This document shows, piece by piece, positions 2,016 to 61,894 of a stretch of 64,000 nucleotides of DNA. This DNA is from a virus. The position numbers and the translations under genes are program-made. How positions within the stretch are numbered: the stretch's first letter is position 1; every line of letters begins with the position of its first letter. The notes under the pieces are model-generated. The model was not told the origin of the DNA and did not search any database. It saw only the letters and a list, made by a program, of their open reading frames with translations. The stretch covers positions 1 to 64,000 of the IMG/VR virus record IMGVR_UViG_3300045988_171839; one strand, 5' to 3'.

Positions 2016-5000
2016 TTAAGAATGTCTTGTGAGATTACGTGCGGCTTGAAGTTGTCGCACAAAGTCATCCATATCAAACCCAGGTTGAGCAACCATATGA
2101 ACATCCAGATGTTCAACATTAAACGATTCGTCGGTTCCGAACCCTGTTGTGTGACTGAACTTGCCATTGATGTCCACAAGTTGTTTAATCAGGTTAGGAG
2201 CAACCTCGCCCAGTTGCCATACGTTGCGCGTAAGGTCGGCGGGAACAACTCCAGACTTAGACGGAAGAGCCGTCAAAGTGCCCTGAGGAGTAATGACGCC
2301 TTCCAGGCCATATTGAGGATCATCGTTGACAAGAGAGAGGCCACCGGCGGTAGATAGAGTGCCTGTTGCGTAGGAGTCACCACGAAATGTTGATTTTTTG
2401 GTTGAATTCCAACCTTCTAACGCCAGTGCGGTCTCTGGATTTGCTGCGTAAGAAGAACTATCATAAAAGGGCAAACCCGTAAATGAATCATCAACCCCTT
2501 GAGTTTTTTGGTAATCATCCTTCCGCAAAGAGGCTTTATATATAATTCCGTCGTAATTCCAAAACAACTGCTTCGTTCCTTTTGTCTCGCCAAAAATTAA
2601 CCCACTGTACTTAGGTTCTCTTAAGTCTTTATTGTGTTCAATATGAAACATACGCGACACGTTCGCCCACTTCCCTCCATTTAAAAGCACATAGGTTTCC
2701 GAAGGTTTTGCAGCCAAAAACCCCGCATCGTTTGTAGAATTTGGTTGCCAAGTGGTATACACACTTGATACATTATTATAGAGCCCATGATCAAACCTTG
2801 CTCCTCGTACAGGCGCCAAACGAACCGTTTCTCGGTTGAGTATTTCATCAAGTTTTTGCACCGCAGTTCCTTTATCGTCTGTTGTAAGCCCCAGTTCTTT
2901 TACCAATTCTTCTTTGGAACCACCAGCTTGTAAATATGCGTCAGCCTGTGTCTTAAATTTCGACAGATTGTCATTGTACGCTGCGACTTGTCGGACGGCG
3001 CCTACTGTATAATCTTGTTGTGATGCTGGTGCTTCAGTAATGCCTGCTTCAAAAGCTCCCTTGGCAGCACCCAAGGCTTCAATGCGTTTGTCCGAGATAT
3101 TTTTTAAATAATCCTCTGTCTTCTTGCCGTCGGAGCCTGTTTGAGTTGTATCAAGGTTTAGTCGTTGAATTTTAGTATAAGCCTCAGCAAAATAATGCAA
3201 CGCCTGTGCCTGTCCGGTGTTACTAATACCTATTTCCTTTTGCCAACTTTCATAAACCTTTTTTAAGCCCTCAAGCTCTTGGGTACTGGCAATGTCCCCA
3301 AGATATTCGCGCTGTGCCTGCAGTTCATCAATTTGAGTTTGTAATTCGTTAATTTTTTTCTCATTGTCCAAATCTTCCAACTCTTTTTGAGCATCTGCGA
3401 TTGCGGCAGTATCTGCTTCGTAAACCCAACCAACGCCTTCTCTCCACACTTTCTTCTTTTCGTTTTGAGCGTTCTCAAGTTTGATTTTAGCCTCAATAAG
3501 TTTATTTTCATATTCCCGTTGACTGTTGATTTGCTCTAGTGCAGATTTTTGTTCTTCTAGTGCGTTAATTTGTTTTTCATAAGATTTATCCAAATACTTG
3601 TTGACACTTTCAAGTTTCTTAGAATTATCTAGCTGTTCAGCTAAAGCTGTAGCTATAGCCTCATGTTTCTGCATACCTTCTATAATCTTGTTTTTTACGG
3701 CATTTAAAACAGCCTCGTTCTCGTCATCGGCGTTGAGCAGGAGCTCGATGCGCTGAAGCATTTGTTCAGGAGTACTAAGTTCGCCAAAATACCTTTTGTC
3801 AGTAAATAAGCCTTCATATTTACCATTTTGGTAACTCTTGAGAAAATCACGTACGTAAATCTCGGCATTTTTTTCGTTTTTTGCCCAATCGTTTAAAGAG
3901 TTTCTTATATGCAACTCTTTCACACCCGCCGTTATTTGGTTAATGTGGTCGACAATCTTACTAGGATCTGAAATGAAATCAACATATTCGGGATAATTAG
4001 AAATAATTTTTTCCTGAGCATCTAAATCTAAATACCCCGTTTCATAATAACTGTCTAGAATGCCGTACAACCCGTTGAGCATTTCACGTAACTGAGAAGA
4101 GGATTTAACCAAATCAGATAATTTAAGCGCCCCCAGTTGCTTCGACATCTCTTCAAGACGCGTCGTTGACACTCCCAAAGCCGACGCGAAAGATTCTATC
4201 ACGTTGGCATTTTTGTCCTTATCCTGTAAAGCCTCAGAAAGCGTTAAAACAGAACCGTGCAGTAGCTCCTGCATTCTGTCAGATTTACGCAATTGATCGG
4301 TGATATACTTTGTGGCCTCGTCTGTTACATTCCCTTTCGAGTCATAAAGAGCAAACGACTTGGGCGTAAGTTCCAATTTTTCAAATTGCGCAGCAACTTG
4401 TTTGATCGCATCGTCAAGATTTGTTTGAGACAATTGACGAAGTGACATTTGTTCAAGACCAGATGTAATAAACGCTTGTTTAATATACTCTTTGTCTAAT
4501 GTCCGCCAATAAACTCTCTGTTCCTCTGCTGACATATTTGATAGCGCTTTGGACTCTTGTGTTGTTTGCACTTTAGCCATACTTTGAGCCAAGTCAAACA
4601 CCTCTTGTGCTTTTTGACGAGTTTTTTCATCAGCAGCAGTCAACAATTCACGAATGCCTTCTATTGTCTGGAAATCTTCGCCCAAGTTCATCTTAACAGC
4701 CGCTTGTTTCAAATAATCATCAAAATCCAGCCCTTGCGCCGACATTTGTTCGTCGATAGAATTAACACTTTCTTTAATAGCTAAAATGGCCTCTGAAGTT
4801 AAATACTCTTTCTCGGTATAATCATGCACTTCATCAAATGTATTGTTTAATGAATTTAAAGCATCCAATTGTTTCTGAGCTGCTTCTGCACGTTGTTTAC
4901 GTTCGTTTTCTTCTTTATCAACCAATTTAGCAAAAACCGGTCCCAATATAGAACCCAAAGTGGAGCCTATAGCCGCACCCATTGGACCAAATAATGCACC

Positions 5001-44355: not shown

Positions 44356-44937
44356 TTAACTCCTTGTCATCACCGATGTGCGCAGTACAGCTAAGAATTC
44401 TTGTAAGGAATAATCAAGAGCGAACAGCTCATCTTCATTTTCTCGCACGAACACCGGGAGTTTAAAACATAAGATCGGATTTTTACTACCAACCACCCTA
44501 AATTCTAATTTAAGCTTCACGGCCTGATGCACCAATTCTAAAAACTTCTTATGATCCTTCATCCCCAACAATTGCATAATTTGTGGTTCGTCATATTTGA
44601 TCCACCCTGAGTCGTGCCAATTTGTTTTAGCCACATATATTAACACCCCAAACAAAGCTCGAACTTCCTCATTACTAATATTTAATAAAAAGTTCCATTC
44701 GTCCTCGTAAACCACGAAAGTTGTTAATGTATTTTTGGTATCAAGAGGGGCTTTTAATAAACAGTCCACAATTTGTTCAAAACATTGGTTATTTAATTCA
44801 AACCCGCGTTCACACTCAAGGAGAAATTCTCGTATAGAGCCGTCGGTCATGCCTTCGGCTCTTAACGAATTAATGATTTTTACAACGCTGCTGCCTTTCT
44901 CGATCGATTTGTTACAAATTTGTTCTTCAACTGTCAT
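44356..44937 (-). CDS. Hypothetical protein
   Basis: Start moved to the ATG at 44937 after GGAGGAG. Confidence 0.4.
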   Translation of the reverse strand: MTVEEQICNKSIEKGSSVVKIINSLRAEGMTDGSIREFLLECERGFELNNQCFEQIVDCLLKAPLDTKNTLTTFVVYEDEWNFLLNISNEEVRALFGVLIYVAKTNWHDSGWIKYDEPQIMQLLGMKDHKKFLELVHQAVKLKLEFRVVGSKNPILCFKLPVFVRENEDELFALDYSLQEFLAVLRTSVMTRS

Positions 44938-47809
44938 AGTCACAATCTCCTCCAAATAAGTTATCAGCATCGAAGTCAAAATCTAAATCTTGCCCCAAAA
45001 TTTCTTCCCACGCCGCTTGATTCCAATCGTCATCATCACACAACTCGCTGACTCGATCTTCGTGAATTACTTGTAAAGTGTATCGATTACCAAGGTATTC
45101 AAATCCAACTTCGTTTTTCACGGGAATTTGGACAATTCCACGAGGGATTAAATCCAACACGCTTTCGTCTAAAATGTCCCAAGCAAAATCCCAATTAAAC
45201 TGTTTGTATTCTTTTGATAAACAATGGCAGTAGTAAAGCAATTCTTTGCCACTGAACGACGCAGACTCAATCGCCTCTTGAATTTCCGTTCTGATAAATG
45301 TCATTGCTCCGAATCTAATCTCATCATATTCGTCACGATTCGGTAAATCAATATTATCAACAATGCTCTCCAAGGTTTTTACTTGTTTACGCGCTGTATA
45401 TTTGCGATACAAATCTTTAACAATAGCAAACCGTTCTTGATCAAATTCAAAACAATCCTCAAAGGTGGGTAACATACTTACCGCGTTTTTGTTGAAATTA
45501 ATATCAAAATCGACATTTTCAAATTCCTTACACAATATATTCATTATGCACGGTGCGGTGATTAGTGGCGAATACTTTTGATAACGGCGTACCAAATTCA
45601 TCTCGTCTTCTGACTTATTGGGTTTGGTTAAAAGTTTTTTAAATTTAATACCAAACATATTTTTGGACGCCATATTGTAACTGTTTTCGTATTGCTTGAA
45701 CTGTTGGTTTAACTCTGGATATAAGTATCTAAAGAAATATGGTTTTTTAGAAATAACCATCGAGTTTCTTTTATATTTATCCGCCTTAACCGCATCAGTG
45801 TCATCATCATTAATTCGGATGAATTTCTTCCACTCTTTCGGCAACTCCGGCGCGGCTGTTCCTTTAATGCGATCAATTTCTTGACCAACAATTTCTCGAA
45901 GTAATTTAATACGCAAAGTGAGTTCGTCTCTTTGTTCTTTTTGGGTGTCTTTTTGGAAAATTCCCTTCATTGCGTGCATTATTGTTGCGCAGTTAGAAAA
46001 ACCTCCAACCCCAGTTCCCAAACCGCGAATATCGGTCGCGATTGAATTCTTTAAACAAATTTTCTGAACCGGCACCGCACCTTTCTCATATGTAATGACA
46101 TTATGCCATTTTTGCGCACCCTTGATAAAGATTTTATTGTCCGTGGACATTACTACGTCGCCGTCAAAATCACTGTCAGAATGTCGTAATGTTGAAGTAT
46201 CATATATACTGTAAATGATTCCACTCTTAATATATTGATACCAATAGTCCATATCTTCGGACGATACTACTTTACAAGGGTTGTGTTCGTGCGAGTCAAT
46301 CATCGGACTGCGGCACAGGTCAACACAATCCACGTTTCTCTGCCTCCAAAAATTTGAATACACTTGGTCGGGCCCAAGTAACCCTACCGGTTCCAACCCA
46401 AGCGCCGATTGACACTGTGCTACGGGATCAGAAATCATAAAACTATAATTTCCTCTCACCCATATCTTACCAATCTTCGCCTTGTTTATCGTCTCAGCAA
46501 TATTGCGATATATTTTCTTCTGTACATGAGCGTCTTCCAACATTATCGGGTTTTTAATAATCGCCCTCAACGCCGTGCTTTGCGCCCCATTATACAATTC
46601 TTTAAAACTGACTTGTTCACCCTTGCAACCCAACATATACAACATTGTATACAATTGGTCACCTGAGCAAATCTTTTTAATCCAATCAATCGTCGGTTGA
46701 ATCAATTCCAGAATATCATCCTTATTGATATCCAACACTTGCAGATATTGATAATTGGCCAGCACATATTCGTCATCGTACTTTTTATTATATCTCGCAA
46801 CTCCCCACTGAATACCAGCCGCATCTACATACTTTTGATATTCATACCAAGATACATAATATTTATACATCTTGAATTGAGATTCACTCAATATAACATC
46901 AATATCCTCCAACCTGTGTGAGATTCCCCACCGGTCACGAATTGAGTCAATACCGTGTGCAGCTCCAAATTCTCGAAAATCAAACGGAACCAAGCACCCC
47001 TTCACAAAAACGCTACGGACAACGAACGACGACGGCGTATATGATAAATTCATATCTTCTGCCCACAGAGCCGCAAACTTAGGATCTATCAATCCCTGTC
47101 CATCAGCGCAGTTTAACTCGATATCCATTATTCTTTCTTTAATCTGTTTTTTCCCAGTCTCGGGATTGGGGCAAATCCAATCAACCGATTGATCCTTCAC
47201 CACATTAAAGAAATCCTTAACCACGCATACTCTCGGGGTTCGCACCCACATAACACTTGAAAACGCCAACGCAAAATACGCATGATATTTCGCCAAATTC
47301 ATTTCTGAAATTTTGGTGTCCAACCCGCACATCAGGTTTTTGTACAAGGTGTCATAAAGAGCTTCGTTAATAAAGGTAATAGTGTTGCGCCTCATTTGTC
47401 CCGAGCCGCAACAAAACCTCACATAATGAATACCGTTAACGTCAAAACCATTCTTGGCTAATTCTTTATATTCTTTCTTGGTCACGACTTCAACGTTAAT
47501 AATATCTTTAACAAACAACGCATCTGTCAAAAACCGATTAAGAATACCAGCTTCCTTGGTTCGTCCCTCTCTCTTCGCTGCTCTTATAGCGCGACGAAAT
47601 TGTTGGACATCGTTAAAAATCTCTCGATGACTTCTGGTATCATTATAATATTTTCTGATTTGCTGAAAAACCAGATTATCACCAATTGATACCAGCGCCC
47701 CATCGCGAGCTGCCTTAGATTTTGAATAATTAACTATATTTAAGTTGTTCTCTACAATAAAACTAGATTTAAGTTTAAAAACTTGATATAGGTTTTGTAA
47801 ATTAGGCAC
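44927..47809 (-). CDS. Single-subunit two-barrel polymerase candidate (YonO / cellular-RdRP-like)
   Basis: 960 aa with a GTG start after GAGGAAG. Signatures: DSDFDGDVV (nt 46157-46171), CRSPMIDSHEH ~50 aa upstream (compare NRAPTLH...NADFDGD in beta-prime), and YVRFCCGSGQMRRNTITF (compare F.xFSxSQLR....W.F of RdRPs). Confidence 0.55.
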   Translation of the reverse strand: MPNLQNLYQVFKLKSSFIVENNLNIVNYSKSKAARDGALVSIGDNLVFQQIRKYYNDTRSHREIFNDVQQFRRAIRAAKREGRTKEAGILNRFLTDALFVKDIINVEVVTKKEYKELAKNGFDVNGIHYVRFCCGSGQMRRNTITFINEALYDTLYKNLMCGLDTKISEMNLAKYHAYFALAFSSVMWVRTPRVCVVKDFFNVVKDQSVDWICPNPETGKKQIKERIMDIELNCADGQGLIDPKFAALWAEDMNLSYTPSSFVVRSVFVKGCLVPFDFREFGAAHGIDSIRDRWGISHRLEDIDVILSESQFKMYKYYVSWYEYQKYVDAAGIQWGVARYNKKYDDEYVLANYQYLQVLDINKDDILELIQPTIDWIKKICSGDQLYTMLYMLGCKGEQVSFKELYNGAQSTALRAIIKNPIMLEDAHVQKKIYRNIAETINKAKIGKIWVRGNYSFMISDPVAQCQSALGLEPVGLLGPDQVYSNFWRQRNVDCVDLCRSPMIDSHEHNPCKVVSSEDMDYWYQYIKSGIIYSIYDTSTLRHSDSDFDGDVVMSTDNKIFIKGAQKWHNVITYEKGAVPVQKICLKNSIATDIRGLGTGVGGFSNCATIMHAMKGIFQKDTQKEQRDELTLRIKLLREIVGQEIDRIKGTAAPELPKEWKKFIRINDDDTDAVKADKYKRNSMVISKKPYFFRYLYPELNQQFKQYENSYNMASKNMFGIKFKKLLTKPNKSEDEMNLVRRYQKYSPLITAPCIMNILCKEFENVDFDINFNKNAVSMLPTFEDCFEFDQERFAIVKDLYRKYTARKQVKTLESIVDNIDLPNRDEYDEIRFGAMTFIRTEIQEAIESASFSGKELLYYCHCLSKEYKQFNWDFAWDILDESVLDLIPRGIVQIPVKNEVGFEYLGNRYTLQVIHEDRVSELCDDDDWNQAAWEEILGQDLDFDFDADNLFGGDCDYDS

Positions 47810-51912: not shown

Positions 51913-51941
51913 TTGAAAATATATTTCAAAAAGTGTAAATT
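51913..51941 (+). promoter_or_regulatory. Possible sigma70-type promoter for the large RNA
   Basis: TTGAAA, 17 nt, TAAATT. Confidence 0.35.
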
Positions 51942-51944
51942 TCA

Positions 51945-52856
51945 CTTTCAGCTTGCCTTTTTTAAAGGTGAAGACTGTAGTGAATTGCGCTTTGCTTGGA
52001 AATATGACGCTCTGCCGTCAACAATTGAAGAACAATTTCCGTGTCGAGTTTGTACTCGGCACGTTAAACATATAGTTCCTTGTGGCCTTCTCGATTGGCT
52101 CTCGAGAATAGGAAGAATTACCAAATTTATTTGGCAATACTTCCGGGATGAAATCTTACCATCCACAAGGAACTCCCGCCTGTTTCCTTTCGGGGGAACA
52201 GAGGCCAACCACTGGCGTTATAAGTGGGCTACCCAGATGAAGGGGCCTCAAACGAGGTAAGTAGTCTAGCCAACGAAAAATTCATCAGTTCCCGTAACAC
52301 GTATGGAGCTAAAGGGAAAGCCGTACGTGTTAGCGTTGGTGTGTTTTCACACCAAATTGGAAGCCCGACACTGCATTCAGGTGTGTTGGGCTGCACATAA
52401 AATGAATGAGCTGGTCGCTCAGGATAATAAACTGACCTGTAGAGGAGTCTACAGTAGAGAAATCTACATTAAATAACCTCCGAGCCAAGCGGAAACAGCA
52501 TTGGTGTGTTAACACCAATTTGGCATTAGTATCTGGGAGTACTAACCCCAGGCGCAGAGACAACTGCGTGTGTCCCACTTACAAAGAGGGCACAAGAGGG
52601 TGCAAACCCATCTCGGCAAGCCTGATTGTCGATATCCCTAAACGTGCCAGGGTGCGAAACCTGGTGAAGCGACATTCGTCGTCAGCGGAAACGCGGAGCC
52701 CCCTGAAAAGAGCAAAGGGCATCGTTGAAAGGATGGTTGCTGATTGTCTAACAACAGCAATGGAGGTAGCCAAAGGGATAGAAGTAATGGAGCTCAGTGC
52801 TGACGTGCTCGTCGTGGCTCTGCATCATCGAAAGGTGAACCAACAGCACAAAAACA
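51945..52856 (+). ncRNA. Large (~0.9 kb) structured non-coding RNA candidate, unclassified (GOLLD/ROOL-like context)
   Basis: No ORF with an SD, and GC is visibly higher than in flanking genes. Many perfect helices are present. One is an 11-bp long-range pair, GTTCCTTGTGG (52075-85) with CCACAAGGAAC (52163-73), that encloses nested hairpins. Others include TTGGTGTG/CACACCAA (52336-55), ATTGGTGT/ACACCAAT (52500-19) and a 12-bp stem TAACACGTATGG/CCGTACGTGTTA. Confidence 0.55.
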
Positions 52857-52857
52857 T

Positions 52858-52886
52858 CTCCTAGCTCCCAGGGAAAAGGGAAAAGG
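52858..52886 (+). promoter_or_regulatory. SD-proximal conserved box CTCCTAGCTCCCAGGGAAAAGGGAAAAGG (copy 0)
   Basis: The identical 29-mer recurs at 53053-53081. A variant lies at 53612-53638. Each copy ends 6-8 nt before an ATG. Confidence 0.5.
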
Positions 52887-52892
52887 AAAAAA

Positions 52893-53000: not shown

Positions 53001-53008
53001 CAACTCAA

Positions 53009-53081
53009 CGCTACTGGCGGGACAAGCGCAAAAATGCCCTCAACCAATATAACTCCTAGCTCCCAGGGAAAAGGGAAAAGG
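53009..53081 (+). promoter_or_regulatory. Conserved leader element: 33-nt box plus SD-proximal box (copy 1)
   Basis: CGCTACTGGCGGGACAAGCGCAAAAATGCCCTC (53009-53041) is identical to 53569-53601. Confidence 0.5.
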
Positions 53082-53088
53082 CAAACTT

Positions 53089-53562: not shown

Positions 53563-53568
53563 CAGCTA

Positions 53569-53638
53569 CGCTACTGGCGGGACAAGCGCAAAAATGCCCT
53601 CCCCAACGTTTCCTCGCTCCCAGGGATAAGGGAAAAGG
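53569..53638 (+). promoter_or_regulatory. Conserved leader element: 33-nt box plus SD-proximal box (copy 2)
   Basis: The same 33-mer as copy 1, followed by CTCGCTCCCAGGGATAAGGGAAAAGG. Confidence 0.5.
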
Positions 53639-53646
53639 ATAAGTTT

Positions 53647-53907
53647 ATGAAAGACTTAGTTAAAATTTTGTACAGTAAACCCACATTGCTCTACGCCGCG
53701 GAAGCGGTGGTTGAGATCTACGGTTCGTCCTTAGTTGGGGGTATCCCCGCTAGGGACAATGGGTGGCATGTCCATCCGCGGCTTGCGCGGGACAGAAAAC
53801 CCTATTCCACTCATGCCATGTACGCCCCAAGCGTAGAGGCCCTGAAAAATAATATCGCTGCTCGATATAACGAGCAAGATTACATCATCGAATACATAGA
53901 GGTTTAA
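53647..53907 (+). CDS. Hypothetical protein
   Basis: ORF directly after the conserved leader box. Confidence 0.55.
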   Translation: MKDLVKILYSKPTLLYAAEAVVEIYGSSLVGGIPARDNGWHVHPRLARDRKPYSTHAMYAPSVEALKNNIAARYNEQDYIIEYIEV

Positions 53908-53931
53908 TCCTCTATGTATTCTCTTAAGCAA

Positions 53932-53986
53932 GATGGTCGTCACGGTAAGAGTCCGTGGCCTGATGAAGGCATGAGCCGAAACCATC
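53932..53986 (+). ncRNA. Hammerhead ribozyme, type III (copy 1)
   Basis: GAUGGUC^GUCACGG-UAAGAGU-CCGUGGC-CUGAUGA-A-GGC-AUGA-GCC-GAAA-CCAUC. Stem III is 6 bp, stem I is 7 bp and stem II is 3 bp. The core CUGAUGA...GAAA is intact and the GUC cleavage site lies after 53938. Confidence 0.85.
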
Positions 53987-54069
53987 AGCAATGGCAGCAA
54001 TGCCCGATGCCTATTCTTCGTGAGTGAATGGAAGCACCGCTAACGGAACAAAAAAGGAGGTCAACAAAT

Positions 54070-54471
54070 ATGTTTAATCTCAATAAAGAGATTGCCAGGC
54101 ACATTTGTCTGGCACAAACCGCGTCAGACGCAGGGAAAGGATTAAATATCCTTTCCCTTGAAGGCGATAAACGCGCAAAACTTTGGGGGTATTCCCTCAA
54201 AGATAAAGAAATAATTAAGGCCATAAGCCTTATTAATTCTTCAAAAATAACGGAATGCCAATTCCGTTATTATGTGGCAGAAATGCCTGATCAAAACGGG
54301 AACAAATCCCGCGTAGTGTATTTTTATAATACACAAGAAAAGATACAAATATCTTTTCACACTTTTTGTGGTGAAATAAAAAACCACAAAAATAAAGGTG
54401 TCCCAATGCAATGGGACAAACGCAATTCTCGCGAGAATTGCCAAAAACTTATAGAAATTTTTAATCTATAA
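54070..54471 (+). CDS. Hypothetical protein (133 aa) inside the hammerhead-bounded cassette
   Basis: Start moved to the ATG at 54070 after AAAAGGAGG. Confidence 0.6.
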   Translation: MFNLNKEIARHICLAQTASDAGKGLNILSLEGDKRAKLWGYSLKDKEIIKAISLINSSKITECQFRYYVAEMPDQNGNKSRVVYFYNTQEKIQISFHTFCGEIKNHKNKGVPMQWDKRNSRENCQKLIEIFNL

Positions 54472-54699
54472 GTTGTCGTGGGATATGGTCCCACAATTGC
54501 TCTCTTACCGCTTTAAGAGAGATAGGTTACCCCTCCGAAGGGGAAGAGGAACGTTTATTCAACTGCTCACAAGCGAGTGAGTGGGAACAATTCTCTTATT
54601 AAGGAGCCGTGAAATACAATACACCCAAGCGGGGGTGGGGAGGTTAAATATGTAAAAACAATACAATGTCCCGAGTAAGATTAACCCTTGCTCGGGATA

Positions 54700-54754
54700 G
54701 ATGGTCGTCACGGTAAGAGTCCGTGGCCTGATGAAGGCATGAGCCGAAACCATC
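54700..54754 (+). ncRNA. Hammerhead ribozyme, type III (copy 2)
   Basis: The 60 nt 54699-54758 are identical to 53931-53990. Predicted cleavage is after 54706. Confidence 0.85.
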
Positions 54755-54795
54755 AGCACAAACAAAAAAATCTATACAAAAAAGGAGGTGATAAA

Positions 54796-55314
54796 ATGTT
54801 TGCAGATGAACTCGCCATCATTAAGGACGACGAAATCCGTGCGACCACGGCTCGTCTACTTAATGGTGCACCCGAGTACTTCTGGCATGTCGCTGCCAGC
54901 AGCTCGGGGAAATATCATCCTGCTTACGCTCTTGGCGAAGGCGGTTTAGTCCGTCACGTCAAGGCGGCGGTGAAATTTGCGAATCACTTATTTGTGATTA
55001 ATAATTTCACCGATAAAGAGCAGGATTATATTATCTCCGCTCTGCTGCTTCACGACATCCTGAAGCACGGAAAAGACGGCGACGAAGGACACACGGTGTT
55101 TGAACACCCGATCCTGGCTGCCGACTATATCCGTGAAAACGCTACGGGTGAATACGCCGATGTGGTTGCGTCTCTTGTGTCTACACACATGGGACAATGG
55201 ACTACGTCGAAGTATTCCTCCGTAGTGCTTCAGGCGCCAGTAACGGAACTGCAGAAGTTCGTTCACGAATGCGATTATCTCGCGTCGCGAAAGGACATCG
55301 ATGTTCTGTTCTGA
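54796..55314 (+). CDS. HD-domain phosphohydrolase
   Basis: Start moved to the ATG at 54796 after AAAGGAGGTG. Contains ...SSGKYHP..., LLLHDILKHG (HD dyad) and later His/Asp residues. Confidence 0.75.
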   Translation: MFADELAIIKDDEIRATTARLLNGAPEYFWHVAASSSGKYHPAYALGEGGLVRHVKAAVKFANHLFVINNFTDKEQDYIISALLLHDILKHGKDGDEGHTVFEHPILAADYIRENATGEYADVVASLVSTHMGQWTTSKYSSVVLQAPVTELQKFVHECDYLASRKDIDVLF

Positions 55315-55670
55315 CGGTCAGAAGTCGCCGGTGCAATCTGACTAAGACTCGGAGCATACACTGCTTGGCAACAGAAACGTGTCGACCTGTTTATCAAGGT
55401 GATACTTGGTGAAACAGAATGTAACTTTATTGGCGTCCAGAGCAAGACGTTAAATTGCTCTGCGTAAAACCACCACCGAAAGGTGTCCGTAGGTCAAGTC
55501 GGGATAAAGGTTGAGACCGCATAATCACAAAAGCCTCCCAAACTGGGGGGTGAGGTCAGCAAGCGACCGAGCAGCTAGTAAAGCTTGCCTGCAACTCGTT
55601 GAGGATACAACGAGCTCACAAGGGGTTTTCATAGGCCCAAAACGCCTAGGCACAGAAGTGCGGGCGTACC
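55315..55670 (+). ncRNA. Long structured leader or ncRNA candidate (~360 nt)
   Basis: ORF-free and GC-enriched. Hairpins include GTCAGA...TCTGAC, CACC-GAAA-GGTG (55474-85) and CAACTCGTTG-aggataca-ACGAGCT. It shares a GUCCG..GUA(A)GGUCAAG string with 56078-56095. Confidence 0.35.
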
Positions 55671-55685
55671 GAAGGAGGTAATATT

Positions 55686-56054
55686 ATGACACAAGAACAA
55701 TTCGAAGACCAACTCACCTTCGCAAAGTTGAGAGGGGAAGAAGAGGGAAGACGCGACGAACAATTACATATGCTATGTAAAATTGCCGACGCCCTCTCGA
55801 ACGAACAGTTTAACTTCCCTGGATTTACAGGAGAGAACCTTGAATGGGTTTTCCACGAACTCGGATTACAAATTAATAACAAACAAAAAGGCCAAAGATT
55901 TATTGTTACCGAAGAAGATTCGGGAAAATACCGTTTTAACCAATACGATCGTCCAGTAGTTGGCGACACAGTCGAAATTATTTGCCCTTCTATTCGAGCA
56001 ATACTAGACGGGAAACCAGTAACAATAGTTAAACCTTATATCAAAAAGGTTTAA
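55686..56054 (+). CDS. Hypothetical protein (tandem paralogue 1)
   Basis: GAAGGAGG SD. Shares ...FPGFTGENLE...GKYRFNQYDRP.VGD.VEI....KPYIKK with the next gene. Confidence 0.6.
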   Translation: MTQEQFEDQLTFAKLRGEEEGRRDEQLHMLCKIADALSNEQFNFPGFTGENLEWVFHELGLQINNKQKGQRFIVTEEDSGKYRFNQYDRPVVGDTVEIICPSIRAILDGKPVTIVKPYIKKV

Positions 56055-56105
56055 TCACCAAAGGACTGGTAGACACAGTCCGCCGTAAGGTCAAGAGCCA
56101 TTCTT

Positions 56106-56180
56106 CCCCACAGGTTCCCGCCAGACGGTTCTGGCGCTGTGGGGGTTATGGGCTCAAGAGGTTCGACTCCTTAAGAGCCC
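56106..56180 (+). ncRNA. tRNA-like module: long hairpin plus T-loop minihelix (copy 1)
   Basis: CCCCACAG[GTTCC CGCCAGA-CGGT-TCTGGCG]CTGTGGGG, then GGGCTCAAGAGG-TTCGACT-CCTTAAGAGCCC. The second part is a 12-position helix capped by a TTCGA T-loop. Confidence 0.5.
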
Positions 56181-56205
56181 AAAATAAAAAAAAGGAGAAA
56201 TTCCA

Positions 56206-56571
56206 ATGATTAATTCAGAAATTGAAGATCAAACATTGATACAAGAAGAAGCAATAAAAAGCGAAGCCCGAGCCGAAGGGCAAATTGACATGCTTTTAAA
56301 AATTGCAGAAATTATGTCCGATGAAAAAATCGGATTTCCTGGATTTACAGGAAACAATCTCGAGCTCGCCTTAAATGAGCTTGGTTTAAGATTCGGACGA
56401 ATTCGTTGCAAACAATTTGTTCTTACCAACGAGGACGATGGCAAATATCGCTTTAATCAATATGACCGTCCCAAAGTTGGCGACAAAGTTGAAATTGTTT
56501 ATCCCGCAATTCAAACCATAATTAGCGGGAAAATAATAACAATAATTAAACCTTATATAAAAAAGATTTAA
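56206..56571 (+). CDS. Hypothetical protein (tandem paralogue 2)
   Basis: AAAGGAG SD. Paralogous to the 55686-56054 product. Confidence 0.6.
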   Translation: MINSEIEDQTLIQEEAIKSEARAEGQIDMLLKIAEIMSDEKIGFPGFTGNNLELALNELGLRFGRIRCKQFVLTNEDDGKYRFNQYDRPKVGDKVEIVYPAIQTIISGKIITIIKPYIKKI

Positions 56572-56590
56572 TCAGGAAAGGAGAAAGACT

Positions 56591-56956
56591 ATGAACTTTG
56601 AACAACTTGTTGAAAAAGTGAAGTTTTACGAGGCAGTAAAACTGAGAGCCGCCACGGCAGAAACGGAGATCGATGCAGCAAACGCAAAGATCGATGCGGC
56701 AAAGCTGGAGCTTGGCGCGGTAATAACGGAACTTGACGCGGCAAGAGAGGTATACCGCTGCGCAAGAGACGCAGAAAGCTTCATTCCTGCAAAATCGAGA
56801 CTCATCGCAGCACAAGCTAAGGTTCGCGCAGCAGACTCAAAAGTCTATGCGGCGAGAGTAGAACTTCTCAAGGCTATGGACAAAGCTATTAATTCAAGAA
56901 GGAGAGCCGATAGAGCAAAAAGGGAAATCGAGTCCGCCCTTGGAATAATTGATTAA
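56591..56956 (+). CDS. Hypothetical coiled-coil protein
   Basis: AAAGGAG SD. Ala/Glu/Lys-rich heptad-like sequence. Confidence 0.55.
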   Translation: MNFEQLVEKVKFYEAVKLRAATAETEIDAANAKIDAAKLELGAVITELDAAREVYRCARDAESFIPAKSRLIAAQAKVRAADSKVYAARVELLKAMDKAINSRRRADRAKREIESALGIID

Positions 56957-56962
56957 CACATC

Positions 56963-57037
56963 CCCCACAGGTTCCTGTCAGACGGTTCTGGCACTGTGGG
57001 GATTATGGGCTTAAGAGGTTCAACTCCTCGAGGGCTC
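56963..57037 (+). ncRNA. tRNA-like module: long hairpin plus T-loop minihelix (copy 2)
   Basis: Same architecture as copy 1. The inner stem TGTCAGA/TCTGGCA versus CGCCAGA/TCTGGCG shows a compensatory C-G to U-A change. The T-loop is TTCAACT. Confidence 0.5.
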
Positions 57038-57124
57038 AACAGCCGCTTCATAGTGCGGCAACCCGTAAAAACAAATTTTCTTAATGGCGAATCGGGTTCC
57101 ACAGTCAGGAAAAGGAGAAATACT

Positions 57125-57567: not shown

Positions 57568-57810
57568 ATGAAAAATTATACACCAGAGCAAATAGCCGCA
57601 ATTGTCAGCTTTGTTAATGATTTTGTCACCTGGGTAAACACCCAACTCGATAAAGAAATGTCAAATATAACCGAAATTTCCTTCGCGGTTAAGCCCGAAT
57701 ACAGGGCAAAAGTCGAAGGTAAAACGGCGGCCTATAGCCAATGTGTTAACCACTTGGCGGGCGTAGCAAAGCAAATAGTCGCTGAAGGGTTCAGTGAAAT
57801 ACTAAAATAA
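57568..57810 (+). CDS. Hypothetical protein
   Basis: Start moved to the ATG at 57568 after AAAGGAGG. Confidence 0.55.
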   Translation: MKNYTPEQIAAIVSFVNDFVTWVNTQLDKEMSNITEISFAVKPEYRAKVEGKTAAYSQCVNHLAGVAKQIVAEGFSEILK

Positions 57811-57883
57811 CACCGCAAGGCCCATCCCATCCAGGGATGATCGGTGCAAGTCCGATGCGTAGAAATACGCGGCGCTCATGGTG
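57811..57883 (+). promoter_or_regulatory. Four-way-junction leader RNA with T-loop-like hairpin (copy 1)
   Basis: CACCGCAAGGCC, three hairpins, then GGCGCTCATGGTG. The hairpins are CATCCC/GGGATG, ATCGG-TGCAAGT-CCGAT and GCGTA-GAAA-TACGC. A further hairpin and the SD follow up to 57955. Confidence 0.45.
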
Positions 57884-57955
57884 GGCATAACGACATCATC
57901 CCCGAAAACCATTAATATTGCTAGGGGTCCCATGGCAGGGAAAGGAGAAACCGTT

Positions 57956-61255: not shown

Positions 61256-61747
61256 ATGTCAATTAAAATCAACAAAACTGAAGCAACCAAAAACATCATC
61301 AACGCCCTCGACGCAATGAAAGCGGACGAGAATATCAACCTCGGCATCGAAGAAATTGAATTTCCCGATGGAAGCAAAGAAAAGTTCTATTACAATGGTG
61401 AGGCCGACAAGCAAGCTGCTGTGCATTTCGCACAGATTTGTATCGATGTTTGCGCCGGCGACAGTGACAAAGCCAAACGCATGATGGCGTCTTGTTTTGT
61501 ATTGCTGACCAATGGGTACAATGTTGACGAAATTGTACCCTCTGCGGAAAGTGAAATCGACACCGAAACTTATATTGATTATAAGAAAGGTGTTTTGCTC
61601 ACGCCGTACGCGTCGGTTGTCGCGTCTCTCACCGAAGACGAACTCAAAGCAACAAAGGGTAAAAAGAATGCCCTGACTAAATCACTCTTGCTCGAAAGAG
61701 CAAGAACTGATTATTTAGAGGACGCTCTCGAATCTTACGAGAGTTAA
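61256..61747 (+). CDS. Hypothetical protein
   Basis: AAAGGAGG SD. Confidence 0.5.
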   Translation: MSIKINKTEATKNIINALDAMKADENINLGIEEIEFPDGSKEKFYYNGEADKQAAVHFAQICIDVCAGDSDKAKRMMASCFVLLTNGYNVDEIVPSAESEIDTETYIDYKKGVLLTPYASVVASLTEDELKATKGKKNALTKSLLLERARTDYLEDALESYES

Positions 61748-61748
61748 T

Positions 61749-61820
61749 CACCGCAAGGCCCGCACGAAAGTGTGAACGGTGCAAGCCCGTTGCCCTCTTA
61801 GGAGGGTGGCGCTTATGGTG
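61749..61820 (+). promoter_or_regulatory. Four-way-junction leader RNA with T-loop-like hairpin (copy 2)
   Basis: CACCGCAAGGCC, three hairpins, then GGCGCTTATGGTG. The hairpins are CGCAC-GAAA-GTGTG, AACGG-TGCAAGC-CCGTT and GCCCTC-TTAG-GAGGGT. The outer hairpins differ in sequence from copy 1 but keep their pairing. Confidence 0.45.
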
Positions 61821-61894
61821 TTCATAATGGCATCATCTTCGTAAAATAAAAATCTTGCTAACCGAAGACTAATGGCATAGAAAGGAGAATCATT

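What the first reader, a model, noticed from the sequence alone, without database searches (positions are those of the whole stretch)
53932..54754. Two identical type III hammerhead ribozymes bracket a 768-nt gene cassette
A 60-nt segment is repeated with 100 percent identity at 53931-53990 and 54699-54758. It folds as a complete hammerhead. Stem III is GAUGGU/ACCAUC and cleavage is GUC^G. Stem I is GUCACGG/CCGUGGC with loop UAAGAGU. The core reads CUGAUGA, stem II is GGC-AUGA-GCC, and GAAA follows. One extra A sits between A9 and stem II, a variant known from the CChMVd plus-strand hammerhead. Both copies are in the sense orientation of the operon. Predicted cleavages after 53938 and 54706 would release a 768-nt RNA (53939-54706) with 5'-OH and 2',3'-cyclic phosphate ends. 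That RNA carries one 133-aa ORF and a 228-nt hairpin-rich tail (54472-54699). Three outcomes seem possible. The ribozymes may process the mRNA and give downstream messages structured 5'-OH ends. RtcB-type ligation may circularise the fragment, as in retrozymes or viroid-like RNAs. The ribozymes may mark the borders of a mobile cassette.
Basis: partly seen in the sequence, partly recalled or inferred. Interest (0 to 1): 0.8.

Follow-up and report, generated by a model that had tools for sequence, protein, structure and literature searches.

The report
Twin hammerhead ribozymes flanking phage gene
Two identical self-cutting RNA motifs (hammerhead ribozymes) flank one small gene in an uncultured gut phage; they most likely cut a long multi-gene transcript into gene-sized messages and also mark where gene cassettes are swapped between related phages, an arrangement already described for prophages in 2011.

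Summary
An exact 60-nt direct repeat (53931-53990 and 54699-54758) contains a complete type III hammerhead at 53932-53986 and 54700-54754. It has one extra nucleotide between A9 and G10.1. Rfam's hammerhead models miss it (best 13.8 bits against a gathering score of 37). About 100 relatives from gut and rumen phage contigs give strong covariation in stems I and III (95% paired, 10 pairs with compensatory changes). The extra position varies (U, C, A or G) or is absent.

The elements are intergenic, in the sense strand, and usually preceded by a stable hairpin. The best reading is co-transcriptional self-cleavage that punctuates a polycistronic phage mRNA, as Perreault et al. proposed in 2011 for hammerheads flanking prophage genes.

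Comparative data add two points. L101 and L120 match the window minus exactly one 768-nt repeat unit. L026 carries the same gene, tail and hammerhead in a different neighbourhood. The hammerheads are therefore mosaic recombination junctions, like PeSL cassettes in T4-type phages. Pistol-like and twister-like motifs or a tRNA-like module replace the hammerhead at orthologous junctions.

RNA circularisation is neither excluded nor supported. This is a new member of a known kind, of moderate interest.

The parts
53647..53907 (+). Upstream gene (86 aa, no family match). Its last codons and stop codon lie inside the hairpin that precedes hammerhead copy 1.
   Evidence: ORF list and SD-based gene map. 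No Pfam or PHROG hit. Orthologues in L081 (100%), L120, L098, L079 and L101 are each followed by the same hairpin and hammerhead.
53890..53921 (+). 13-bp hairpin (GAAUACAUAGAGG / CCUCUAUGUAUUC), ending 10 nt upstream of hammerhead copy 1. Predicted 3'-end cap of the upstream cleavage product.
   Evidence: Folds. An upstream hairpin is a family-wide feature: mean MFE -14.3 against -6.7 kcal/mol at control positions, present in 68% of 68 unique contexts.
53932..53986 (+). Hammerhead ribozyme copy 1 (type III). Predicted cleavage after C53938. The exact repeat spans 53931-53990.
   Evidence: (77.1 bits) and covariation.
53991..54069 (+). Leader 1, with SD GGAGG at 54056-54060, 9 nt before the ATG.
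   Evidence: Homologous leaders follow a pistol-like motif in L118/L097 and a hammerhead in L140.
54070..54471 (+). Cassette gene, 133 aa. A confidently folded orphan protein of unknown function.
   Evidence: No Pfam or PHROG hit. 16 unnamed metagenomic homologues. AlphaFold pLDDT 92.7. No PDB or BFVD fold match.
54472..54666 (+). Structured 3' tail of the cassette, made of several hairpins. Function unknown.
   Evidence: MFE z-score -4.0 for 54472-54699. 97% identical in L026/L088 and recognisably conserved in the 79%-identity homologue loci L135/L137.
54667..54699 (+). 13-bp hairpin that directly abuts hammerhead copy 2.
   Evidence: The same hairpin precedes the hammerhead in L026, L031, L076, L097, L118 and L140.
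54700..54754 (+). Hammerhead ribozyme copy 2 (type III). Predicted cleavage after C54706. The exact repeat spans 54699-54758.
   Evidence: 77.1 bits.
54759..54795 (+). Leader 2, with SD GGAGG at 54784-54788.
   Evidence: Colinear with L101/L120, where it directly follows their single hammerhead.
54796..55314 (+). Downstream gene, an HD-domain protein of 172 aa.
   Evidence: Pfam PF01966, E = 1.3e-6. phrog_5889, E = 4e-51.

Best explanation
Both copies are genuine type III hammerhead ribozymes. They belong to a sub-family that is abundant in uncultured gut and rumen phages and usually carries one unpaired nucleotide between A9 and G10.1.

They sit in the sense strand between small genes of a plus-strand block. 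That block has no convincing internal sigma-70 promoters or intrinsic terminators, so it is probably transcribed as a long polycistronic RNA.

As each ribozyme is transcribed it folds and cuts itself after C53938 and C54706 (inferred, not shown). Each cut would leave two structured ends. The upstream message would end in a stable hairpin, a few nucleotides and a 2',3'-cyclic phosphate. The downstream message would begin with a 5'-OH on G1.1, which is already paired in the 7-bp stem I. That gives a flush 5'-terminal hairpin, followed by a 40-85-nt leader with a strong ribosome-binding site. The net effect would be to punctuate the operon into gene-sized mRNAs with defined, nuclease-resistant ends, independently of the polymerase.

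The conserved 60-bp ribozyme DNA also provides homology for recombination. Relatives carry or lack exactly one hammerhead-to-hammerhead unit, and neighbouring genes change at the hammerhead. This explains why the two copies here are identical.
For: Structure:
- All core positions and all three stems are present.
- In 45 distinct relatives, 95.3% of cells are paired, against 25-42% when partners are slid. Ten of 16 pairs show compensatory changes, and 0 of 500 shuffles reach the observed covariation.
- Stems I and III were never part of the search patterns used.
- The extra position is U17/C12/A9/G1 among 39 unique sequences. It is absent in 7 further unique sequences from 9 loci. This is how a tolerated bulge behaves.
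- CChMVd(+) has the same insertion and is active (PMC3705267).
- Loop 2 (AUGA) fits the RNnA motif, and loop 1 starts with the required U (PMC2632901).
- Copies not selected by pattern keep the core.

Context:
- The elements are intergenic and in the sense strand, 10-60 nt after a stop codon and 15-135 nt before the next SD-ATG. 68% have a stable hairpin ending within 12 nt upstream.
- No convincing plus-strand terminator or strong promoter lies between about 52 and 57 kb.
- The hammerhead fold is the predicted structure when the 3' strand of stem III emerges, and it lies within 0.8-1.1 kcal/mol of the MFE in full context.

Equivalence of junction modules:
- The same leaders are preceded by a hammerhead, a pistol-like motif, a twister-like motif or a tRNA-like module in different relatives.
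- The same operon holds two Rfam-significant twister-sister ribozymes and a sub-threshold twister.

Recombination:
- The window minus one 768-nt unit is colinear with L101 and L120.
- L026 has the gene, tail and hammerhead in another context, with homology breaking right after ...CCAUCAGCA.
- Hammerhead-flanked single-gene units recur in unrelated contigs L049/L052 and L145.

Published precedent:
- Multiple hammerheads flank prophage genes of varying identity, cleave in vitro and in vivo, and were proposed to process long phage transcripts (PMC3088659; also PMC6765202).
Against: - No cleavage assay or transcript data exist for this element.
- Rfam's curated hammerhead models do not recognise it.
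- In CChMVd, C or G at the extra position was strongly detrimental (PMC3705267), yet C is common in this family. Activity of all variants therefore cannot be assumed.
- Stem II is only 3 bp.
- Loop 1 has its 3' pyrimidine at the last position, not the penultimate one (PMC2632901).
- An alternative helix between the core CUGAUG and the 3' flank CAUCAG is marginally favoured in thermodynamic predictions of the longer transcript.
- The core's invariance is partly imposed by my search patterns.
- Transcription units are inferred only from consensus scans. The phage encodes its own RdRP-fold RNA polymerase, whose promoters and terminators are unknown.
- The stabilising effect of the end structures is inferred from general knowledge, not tested.
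Confidence: 0.72

Rival explanations
1. After double cleavage the 768-nt RNA (53939-54706) is circularised, either by hammerhead-catalysed reverse ligation or by a host RtcB-type ligase. The circle then acts as an exonuclease-resistant circular mRNA, or as a mobile RNA intermediate in the manner of retrozymes and viroid-like RNAs.
For: The two copies are identical, so the ends of the excised RNA can re-form a perfect hammerhead: the 3' end GAUGGUC>p pairs with ACCAUC of the 5'-terminal ribozyme body. In L049/L052 the two flanking hammerheads differ in stem I and the loops but share stem III. The fragment carries its own SD and ORF. The size is in the retrozyme range of 600-1000 nt (PMC5680766).
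Against: The close relative L026 has the same gene and tail with only the downstream hammerhead. Homologues L135/L137 end in a twister-like motif instead. A two-hammerhead unit around this gene is therefore not conserved. Identity of the two copies is explained more simply by recent DNA recombination. No ligase or reverse transcriptase was found among the window proteins scanned, but only 64 kb of a genome of roughly 100-140 kb is visible. The cassette encodes a conserved protein, unlike non-coding retrozymes and viroids. L106's two hammerheads have different stem III sequences.
Confidence: 0.06
2. The sequences no longer cleave, or cleave negligibly. They persist mainly as conserved intergenic linker DNA that promotes homologous recombination between phages, or as structured RNA spacers and insulators.
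For: The core insertion deviates from the consensus, and C and G at that position were detrimental in CChMVd (PMC3705267). Rfam models do not score the element. Stem II is short. The elements demonstrably coincide with recombination breakpoints. L028 carries a 28-nt insertion at the extra-nucleotide position. L106 has a copy with a changed U4.
Against: A mere recombination linker would not show compensatory base changes that keep stems I and III paired across 15 or more different stem sequences while the 11 catalytic-core nucleotides and the GUC triplet stay fixed. Other catalytic classes (Rfam-significant twister-sister; pistol-like and twister-like motifs) occupy equivalent junctions, which points to selection for cleavage itself (PMC6765202). 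The extra nucleotide has an experimentally active precedent.
Confidence: 0.08
3. The hairpin-plus-hammerhead module is primarily a polymerase-independent 3'-end-forming device, a 'ribozyme terminator'. It would serve transcripts made by the phage's own RdRP-fold (YonO/crAss-like) RNA polymerase, which may ignore host intrinsic terminators. On this view the purpose is to define and cap the upstream 3' end rather than to liberate stable downstream messages.
For: The phage encodes a 960-aa protein matching PF05183. A hairpin or pseudoknot sits directly upstream of nearly every ribozyme in the family. In L128-L133 the hairpin is followed by a U-tract that overlaps the 5' strand of stem III. Terminated and cleaved read-through transcripts would therefore end at nearly the same place.
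Against: Which polymerase transcribes this block is unknown, and strong sigma-70-like promoters head it. Each hammerhead is followed by a leader with a strong SD and another gene, so downstream RNA is clearly meant to be used. This is a refinement of the main explanation rather than an exclusive alternative.
Confidence: 0.12

Closest known systems
Multiple hammerhead ribozymes flanking genes in prophages (Perreault et al. 2011, PMC3088659: Clostridium scindens, Azorhizobium caulinodans, Agrobacterium tumefaciens ardA locus)
   Same: Several same-sense hammerheads lie close together and flank single genes or short gene blocks of phage origin. The gene identities are not constant. The proposed role is processing of long phage transcripts. 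The published examples cleave in vitro and in vivo.
   Different: Here the two copies are 100% identical. They belong to a sub-family with an extra core nucleotide that Rfam misses, and they are systematically preceded by a hairpin or pseudoknot. Close relatives show directly that one hammerhead-to-hammerhead unit is gained or lost. No experimental data exist for this locus.
CChMVd (+) hammerhead with extra A10 between A9 and G10.1 (De la Pena & Flores 2001, as summarised in PMC3705267)
   Same: A single-nucleotide insertion at exactly the same core position in a type III hammerhead. Loop 2 begins AUGA.
   Different: CChMVd is a plant viroid RNA replicating by rolling circle, whereas this is a dsDNA phage operon. 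In CChMVd, C or G at that position was detrimental; here C is frequent and G occurs once. The position is polymorphic (U, C, A or G) or absent within one family.
PeSL (promoter-early stem-loop) regulatory cassettes of T4-type phages (Arbiol et al. 2010, PMC2839356)
   Same: A conserved intergenic element of about 60-100 bp flanks an orphan gene in one phage and is present as a single copy in a close relative. This is explained by homologous recombination between the repeats, and the element also has a gene-expression function.
   Different: PeSLs consist of a promoter plus a terminator stem-loop, not ribozymes. PeSL DNA mini-circles were shown experimentally, whereas nothing of the kind has been tested here.
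Retrozymes and viroid-like circular RNAs with hammerheads (PMC4918200, PMC5680766)
   Same: Two same-sense type III hammerheads in direct repeat delimit an RNA of 600-1000 nt. After double cleavage, its ends could re-form a hammerhead.
   Different: Those RNAs are non-coding, accumulate as circles and propagate by reverse transcription or RNA replication in eukaryotes. This unit is a normal SD-led protein-coding cassette in a phage genome. The upstream hammerhead is absent in a close relative, and no reverse transcriptase or ligase was seen.
[quoted passage not shown] 2015, as reviewed in PMC6765202 and PMC6154101)
   Same: Different self-cleaver classes cluster near each other and near phage genes. 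The reviews argue that the need is for cleavage and that the particular motif is unimportant.
   Different: This phage group gives orthologous-junction evidence for that idea. The same leader or gene is preceded or followed by a hammerhead, a pistol-like motif, a twister-like motif or a tRNA-like module in different relatives.

Membership tests
Hammerhead ribozyme (type III) | Three helices (I, II, III) radiating from a junction, supported by covariation | tested here: met
   Stem I is 7 bp, stem II 3 bp and stem III 6 bp. In 45 distinct relatives, 95.3% of cells are paired. Six of 7 stem I pairs and 4 of 6 stem III pairs have compensatory changes, and 0 of 500 shuffles reach the observed score. 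Stem II is invariant only because the search pattern fixed it.
Hammerhead ribozyme (type III) | Conserved catalytic core C3-U4-G5-A6-N7-G8-A9, G12-A13-A14, the A15.1-U16.1 pair and a non-G H17 at the cleavage site | tested here: met
   CUGAUGA, GAAA, the A-U pair closing stem III and GUC before the cut are all present. There is one deviation: an extra unpaired A between A9 and G10.1. The same insertion occurs in the active CChMVd(+) hammerhead (PMC3705267). In this family the position varies or is absent.
Hammerhead ribozyme (type III) | Type III topology: stems I and II closed by loops, stem III open | tested here: met
   Loop 1 is UAAGAGU and loop 2 is AUGA. The 5' and 3' ends lie in stem III.
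Hammerhead ribozyme (type III) | Loop 1 - loop 2 tertiary motif (loop 1 UNmYN, loop 2 RNnA; PMC2632901) | tested here: inconclusive
   Loop 2 (AUGA) fits RNnA. Loop 1 begins with the required U and is a heptaloop, but its 3' pyrimidine is the last nucleotide rather than the penultimate one. Loop 1 is conserved as U-A-R-R-A-G-U across the family.
Hammerhead ribozyme (type III) | Reaches the gathering score of an Rfam hammerhead covariance model (RF00008, RF00163, RF02275-7) | tested here: not met
   No hit at gathering or at E<=10 over 1.3 kb. The best result is Hammerhead_II at 13.8 bits against a gathering score of 37 on an 81-nt slice. Rfam also missed the other textbook-shaped extra-A hammerheads in L001, L003 and L006. 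This is an operational criterion and reflects how the models were built, not the definition of the family.
Hammerhead ribozyme (type III) | Site-specific self-cleavage giving 2',3'-cyclic phosphate and 5'-OH ends | not testable with these tools
   Requires in vitro transcription and cleavage assays, or end-specific RNA-seq.
Prophage/phage multi-hammerhead gene-flanking arrangement (Perreault 2011) | Two or more same-sense hammerheads in intergenic regions flanking single genes or short blocks in phage DNA, with variable gene content | tested here: met
   Window map. Phage identity comes from portal, terminase and tail proteins. Variable neighbours appear in L026, L101, L120 and L140. Other flanked units occur in L049/L052 and L145.
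PeSL-like recombination cassette | A gene flanked by two copies of a conserved intergenic element in one phage, with a single copy and no gene in a close relative | tested here: met
   The window minus 768 nt aligns colinearly with L101 and L120.
PeSL-like recombination cassette | The element is a promoter plus a terminator stem-loop, and excised DNA mini-circles are detectable | tested here: not met
   The element is a ribozyme. No sigma-70 promoter or terminator is predicted in it. Mini-circles cannot be tested here. The locus works like a PeSL cassette at the DNA level but is not a member of that family.
Retrozyme / viroid-like circular RNA | Non-coding RNA delimited by hammerheads that accumulates as a circle, with retro-element hallmarks or RNA replication | tested here: not met
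   The unit encodes a conserved, confidently folding protein behind a strong SD. The upstream hammerhead is absent in L026. No reverse transcriptase was seen among the scanned proteins. Circularity itself cannot be tested here.

The most novel reading that the evidence does not exclude
The hammerhead-bounded unit is a true mobile cassette whose intermediate is a circle. Double self-cleavage would release the 768-nt RNA. Its ends would re-form the hammerhead and be ligated, by the ribozyme itself or by a host RtcB. The result would be a translatable, exonuclease-resistant circular mRNA, or a template for re-insertion at any resident hammerhead. The ribozyme would then act at once as processing signal, ligation site and attachment site, in a phage analogue of integron cassettes or retrozymes.
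Probability: 0.06. Interest if true: 0.85.

Novelty: new member of a known kind. Interest (0 to 1): 0.45.

Why it matters
The biological role of self-cleaving ribozymes in bacteria and phages is still described as largely elusive (PMC6765202). This phage group offers unusually clean natural comparisons:
- the same gene with and without an upstream hammerhead;
- the same junction occupied by a hammerhead, a pistol-like motif, a twister-like motif or a tRNA-like module;
- a one-unit insertion or deletion bounded by identical ribozymes.

Together these support the view that the cell needs a cut at that point and the catalyst is interchangeable. They also suggest a second, DNA-level role for ribozyme sequences as recombination linkers that shuffle accessory genes.

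On the practical side, the sub-family has an extra core nucleotide, a 3-bp stem II and a conserved UARRAGU loop 1, and it is invisible to Rfam's current hammerhead models. Hammerheads in gut phage metagenomes are therefore probably under-annotated. The compact hairpin-plus-hammerhead module is also a natural analogue of synthetic ribozyme insulators.

Tried and rejected
- Rfam scans gave no hammerhead at any useful threshold: whole window at gathering and at E<=1, three sub-regions, and an 81-nt slice. I treated this as a limit of the models once Rfam also missed clear extra-A hammerheads elsewhere.
- Megablast of 6 kb against deposited phages found no match. TerL is only about 25% identical to Bacillus and Clostridium phage proteins, so the phage could not be named.
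- I first suspected an N4-like phage because of the 3,781-aa ORF. I rejected this because the ORF matches a minor-tail/tape-measure domain.
- A 13-codon ORF (AUGGUCGUC...UGA) lies inside the hammerhead. I rejected it as coding: it has no SD, and variation in relatives follows base-pairing, not codons.
- I tested whether the upstream hairpins are intrinsic terminators. Neither hairpin in the window is called as one, although some relatives have U-tracts.
- The alternative inactive helix CUGAUG/CAUCAG was quantified at only 0.8-1.1 kcal/mol better than the hammerhead fold, and it does not form before stem III can.
- The function of the 133-aa protein stayed unresolved after Pfam, PHROGs, a homologue search, AlphaFold, and PDB and BFVD fold searches.
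- A search for a pistol in the window found only the pseudoknot module at 55448.
- Two model-search calls failed on input limits, and one protein call failed on a frame error.
Full report
OBSERVATION

The 60-nt repeat is real and exact: 53931-53990 equals 54699-54758, 768 nt apart. Within it, 53932-53986 and 54700-54754 read as a complete type III hammerhead:
- stem III GAUGGU/ACCAUC;
- cleavage triplet GUC followed by G, so the cuts fall after C53938 and C54706;
- stem I GUCACGG/CCGUGGC with loop UAAGAGU;
- core CUGAUGA, then one extra A;
- stem II GGC-AUGA-GCC, then GAAA.

The isolated element folds into exactly this junction at the MFE. A descriptor I wrote for type III hammerheads finds only these two sites in the window, against 0.04 expected by chance.

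WHY RFAM IS SILENT

No Rfam hammerhead model reports the element at gathering threshold or at E<=10 over 1.3 kb. On an 81-nt slice, only a truncated Hammerhead_II alignment of 13.8 bits appears, against a gathering score of 37.

I scanned viral contigs for the core with the extra A. This returned several textbook-shaped hammerheads with unrelated stems (L001/L017, L003/L004/L016, L006, and a type I in L002). Rfam at gathering missed all of those that were scanned (L001, L002, L003, L006, L016, L017). Rfam's silence is therefore a property of the models and is only weak evidence against the call.

FAMILY AND COVARIATION

I ran three pattern scans, each fixing a different part of the motif. They gave about 130 loci from human-gut and rumen-type metagenomes, many on phage contigs of 100-170 kb.

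A scan that fixed only CUGAUGA-N-GGCAUGAGCC-GAAAC left stems I and III unconstrained. It returned at least 15 different stem I sequences and at least 10 different stem III sequences, and nearly all remain complementary.

On an alignment of 45 distinct sequences (A3):
- 95.3% of cells form pairs, against 25-42% when partners are slid by 1-3 columns;
- 10 of 16 pairs show changes on both sides (147 cells);
- 0 of 500 shuffles reach the observed covariation score.

The A15.1-U16.1 and C15.2-G16.2 pairs and the GUC triplet are near-invariant, as expected for a hammerhead.

The extra nucleotide is U (17), C (12), A (9) or G (1) among 39 unique sequences. It is absent in a related set of 7 unique sequences from 9 loci that use a GUA triplet. 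L028 has a 28-nt two-hairpin insertion at exactly that position. This is how a tolerated, outward-facing bulge behaves.

The same insertion is documented in the active CChMVd(+) hammerhead. There A10 slows cleavage moderately, U speeds it up, and C or G is detrimental (PMC3705267). Because C is common here, activity of every variant should not be assumed.

Loop 2 (AUGA) fits the RNnA motif, and loop 1 begins with the U that pairs with the 3' A of loop 2 in natural hammerheads (PMC2632901). The 3' pyrimidine of loop 1 is in the last position rather than the penultimate one, so that criterion is only partly met.

One caveat is that the core's invariance is partly imposed by my search patterns. 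However, lower-scoring hits of the covariance model were not pattern-selected, and they keep CUGAUGA, the extra U, GGC/GCC and GAAA with different stems and loops. The model R1 scores both window copies at 77.1 bits, and nothing else in the window exceeds 14.7 bits.

GENOMIC SETTING

The window is from a large tailed phage. It encodes a portal, a large terminase and tail proteins and a 3,781-aa tape-measure-like protein. A 960-aa protein matches the RdRP family PF05183, the fold of YonO-like and crAss-like single-subunit phage RNA polymerases (the link to YonO is from my own knowledge). No close relative exists among deposited phages. The few hits in genome bins are mostly Clostridia, but binning of phage contigs is unreliable.

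From about 49.6 kb to the end of the window, all genes are on the plus strand, small, and led by strong AGGAGG sites. Strong sigma-70-like promoters lie at 49.1-49.5 kb, and tandem terminators lie at 51.76-51.83 kb. Nothing convincing of either kind lies between about 52 and 57 kb. This fits long polycistronic transcription across the hammerheads.

RECURRING ARCHITECTURE

In 68 unique contexts, the hammerhead lies 10-60 nt after a stop codon and 15-135 nt before the next SD-ATG, in the sense strand. The 45 nt upstream fold with a mean of -14.3 kcal/mol, against -6.7 at control positions. In 68% of contexts a stable hairpin of unrelated sequence ends within 12 nt of the ribozyme.

In the window these hairpins are 53890-53921, which encloses the stop codon of the upstream gene, and 54667-54699, which abuts the ribozyme. 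Where no hairpin is present, a small pseudoknot module occupies the same place (CGUC-loop-GACG-UUAAA-loop complement).

After cleavage, the upstream RNA would therefore end in a stable structure plus a 2',3'-cyclic phosphate. The downstream RNA would begin at G1.1, already paired in stem I, giving a flush 5'-terminal hairpin. That such end structures stabilise bacterial mRNAs is general knowledge, not tested here.

The hammerhead fold is the predicted structure when stem III's 3' strand emerges. In full context it lies 0.8-1.1 kcal/mol above an alternative in which the core CUGAUG pairs with the flank CAUCAG. I regard this as a minor caveat.

THE CASSETTE IS AN INDEL BOUNDED BY THE HAMMERHEADS

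L026 comes from a 141-kb contig and is 85-97% identical to the window. It has the 133-aa gene, the tail and the downstream hammerhead at about 97% identity. In L026 the gene directly follows the 54-aa ORF, with no upstream hammerhead. Downstream, homology breaks right after ...CCAUCAGCA and resumes at the leader that lies at 57042 in the window.

Conversely, L101 and L120 have ORF86, hairpin, hammerhead, leader 2 and the HD gene, and they lack the 133-aa gene. The window with one 768-nt repeat unit removed aligns colinearly with both.

L140 has the gene, tail and hammerhead followed by a leader-1-like sequence and a 55%-identical paralogue. Single genes flanked by hammerheads also occur in unrelated contigs: L049/L052 at 468 nt and L145 at 738 nt.

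The two-hammerhead bracket around this particular gene is therefore not a conserved unit. The hammerhead is a mosaic junction, and one hammerhead-to-hammerhead unit is gained or lost between close relatives. This is the topology described for PeSL cassettes in T4-type phages, where recombination between flanking repeats deletes or inserts an orphan gene (PMC2839356). It also explains why the two copies here are identical, whereas orthologous copies in relatives differ at 1-3 positions.

INTERCHANGEABLE JUNCTION MODULES

The operon also contains two Rfam-significant twister-sister ribozymes at 57808-57888 and 61746-61825. A sub-threshold twister-P1 match lies at 55461-55521 (30.6 bits, E = 6e-5 in a 301-nt scan). 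It replaces the consensus CCC/GGG pseudoknot with GUC/GAC.

- The homologue of leader 1 is preceded in L118 by a pistol-like motif, called by eye. It has a 5-bp P1, the UUAAAUAG linker, a 7-bp pseudoknot between the P1 loop and the P2-P3 junction, and GU before P2's 3' strand. These features match the published description (PMC6154101).
- The leader at 57042 is preceded by a tRNA-like module in the window, by the hammerhead in L026 and L008, and by a twister-like motif in L010.
- The 79%-identical homologue of the cassette gene ends in a hairpin plus twister-like motif instead of a hammerhead.

This supports the published inference that what matters at these sites is efficient cleavage, not the particular motif (PMC6765202).

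COMPARISON WITH WHAT IS KNOWN

Perreault et al. 2011 (PMC3088659) reported that multiple hammerheads often flank individual genes or short gene blocks in prophages and that the gene identities vary. They showed that such arrays cleave in vitro and in vivo, and they proposed that long phage transcripts are thereby processed. The finding is an instance of that arrangement.

Three things are added here:
- a well-populated sub-family with an extra core nucleotide that Rfam's models do not capture;
- the systematic hairpin or pseudoknot upstream of the ribozyme;
- direct comparative evidence that the ribozymes are recombination junctions and that different classes are interchangeable at the same junction.

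RIVALS

Circularisation of the 768-nt RNA remains physically possible, because the identical copies let the ends re-form a hammerhead. However, it is not conserved across relatives, it has no supporting enzymes in view, and it is not needed to explain the identity of the copies. I give it about 6%.

A purely DNA-level linker role with dead ribozymes is contradicted by the compensatory changes and by the presence of other catalytic classes at equivalent sites (about 8%).

A role mainly as a polymerase-independent 3'-end former for the phage's own RNA polymerase is an attractive refinement that I cannot test (about 12%).

VERDICT

This is a new member of a known kind. Interest is moderate (0.45), mainly because the phage group offers natural experiments bearing on the unresolved function of phage ribozymes.

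Noticed in passing
window 57808-57888 (+) and 61746-61825 (+): Two twister-sister ribozymes (RF02681) at 61.5 and 70.5 bits, well above the gathering score of 34. Each starts at the stop codon of the preceding gene in the same plus-strand operon. L008 has one about 570 nt after its hammerhead.
   Followed up: partly
window 55461-55521 (+): Sub-threshold type-P1 twister match (RF03160): 30.6 bits against a gathering score of 67.2, E = 6e-5 in a 301-nt scan. It keeps UAA, UAAA and P1/P2, and GUC...GAC replaces the consensus CCC...GGG pseudoknot. Probably a divergent twister. A different twister-like motif (UAAUGCAGCC..GGCGGUCCAAAGCCCGC..UAAUGCAG) recurs in L010, L101, L120, L135, L137, L139 and L140.
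   Followed up: partly
window 55433-55461 (+); also L007, L027-L029, L049/L052, L010, L101, L120, L118: A small H-type pseudoknot module (CGUC-CAGAGCAA-GACG-UUAAA-UUGCUCU) that always lies directly upstream of a ribozyme, whether hammerhead, twister-like or pistol-like. Both helices covary. L120 has GUGUC/GACAU and GAACA/UGUUC, and L007 has UGAGCA/UGCUCA. It resembles the 5' domain of pistol. It has no Rfam family, and its function is unknown. It may cap the 3' end of the upstream product.
   Followed up: partly
window 56106-56185 and 56963-57040 (+): A repeated junction module made of a long hairpin plus a minihelix that looks like a tRNA acceptor stem and T-arm, with a 7-nt loop UUCGACU or UUCAACU. 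MFE is -44.5 kcal/mol and z = -5.6. Rfam gives only a weak tRNA-Sec hit (18 bits), and ARAGORN finds no tRNA. It occupies the junction that holds a hammerhead in L026/L008, so it may be an RNase P/Z-type processing signal.
   Followed up: partly
window 53008-53085 and 53568-53642 (+); D2 part also at 52848-52890: A repeated module of about 77 nt. It has a 34-nt exact repeat (ACGCUACUGGCGGGACAAGCGCAAAAAUGCCCUC), then CUCCUAGCUCCCAGGGAAAAGGGAAAAGG directly before start codons. In L010 it is fused directly to the hammerhead. MFE is not better than shuffles. It could be a leader or translational operator, a phage promoter, or an unrecognised processing element.
   Followed up: no
window 51939-52860 (+): About 900 nt with no convincing ORF, lying just after two strong terminators. 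It is rich in GNRA-type tetraloop hairpins and is conserved at about 84% in L026. No Rfam match at E<=5. Possibly a large structured non-coding RNA.
   Followed up: no
window 55522-55685 (+): About 160 nt of further GC-rich, apparently structured non-coding sequence between the twister-like element and the next gene. It is not conserved in L101/L120, where homology breaks after the pseudoknot module.
   Followed up: no
window 44927-47809 (-): A 960-aa protein matching Pfam RdRP (PF05183, E = 1e-11) and phrog_8308. This is probably a YonO-like or crAss-like single-subunit DNA-dependent RNA polymerase encoded next to the divergent promoter region.
   Followed up: no
L118 about 3690-3765 (also L097): A pistol-like ribozyme: CGUCG-ACCGAG-CGACG-UUAAAUAG-GCC-UUAG-GCUCGGU-GCG-P3-GU-GGC. 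It lies directly upstream of the homologue of the window's leader 1.
   Followed up: partly
L028 5046-5127: A hammerhead of the same sub-family with a 28-nt insertion forming two small hairpins, placed exactly at the extra-nucleotide position between A9 and stem II. It still scores 48.9 bits with the family model.
   Followed up: no
L128-L133 (hammerheads without the extra nucleotide): The upstream hairpin is followed by a U-tract that overlaps the 5' strand of stem III (..CACCCUUU|UUCUGUA). An intrinsic terminator and the ribozyme would therefore produce almost the same 3' end.
   Followed up: no
window 55891-56065 and 56408-56582; ORFs 56206-56571 and 56591-56956: A 175-nt direct repeat at 75% identity, and two adjacent 121-aa ORFs. 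These suggest tandem paralogous small genes in the same hyperplastic region.
   Followed up: no
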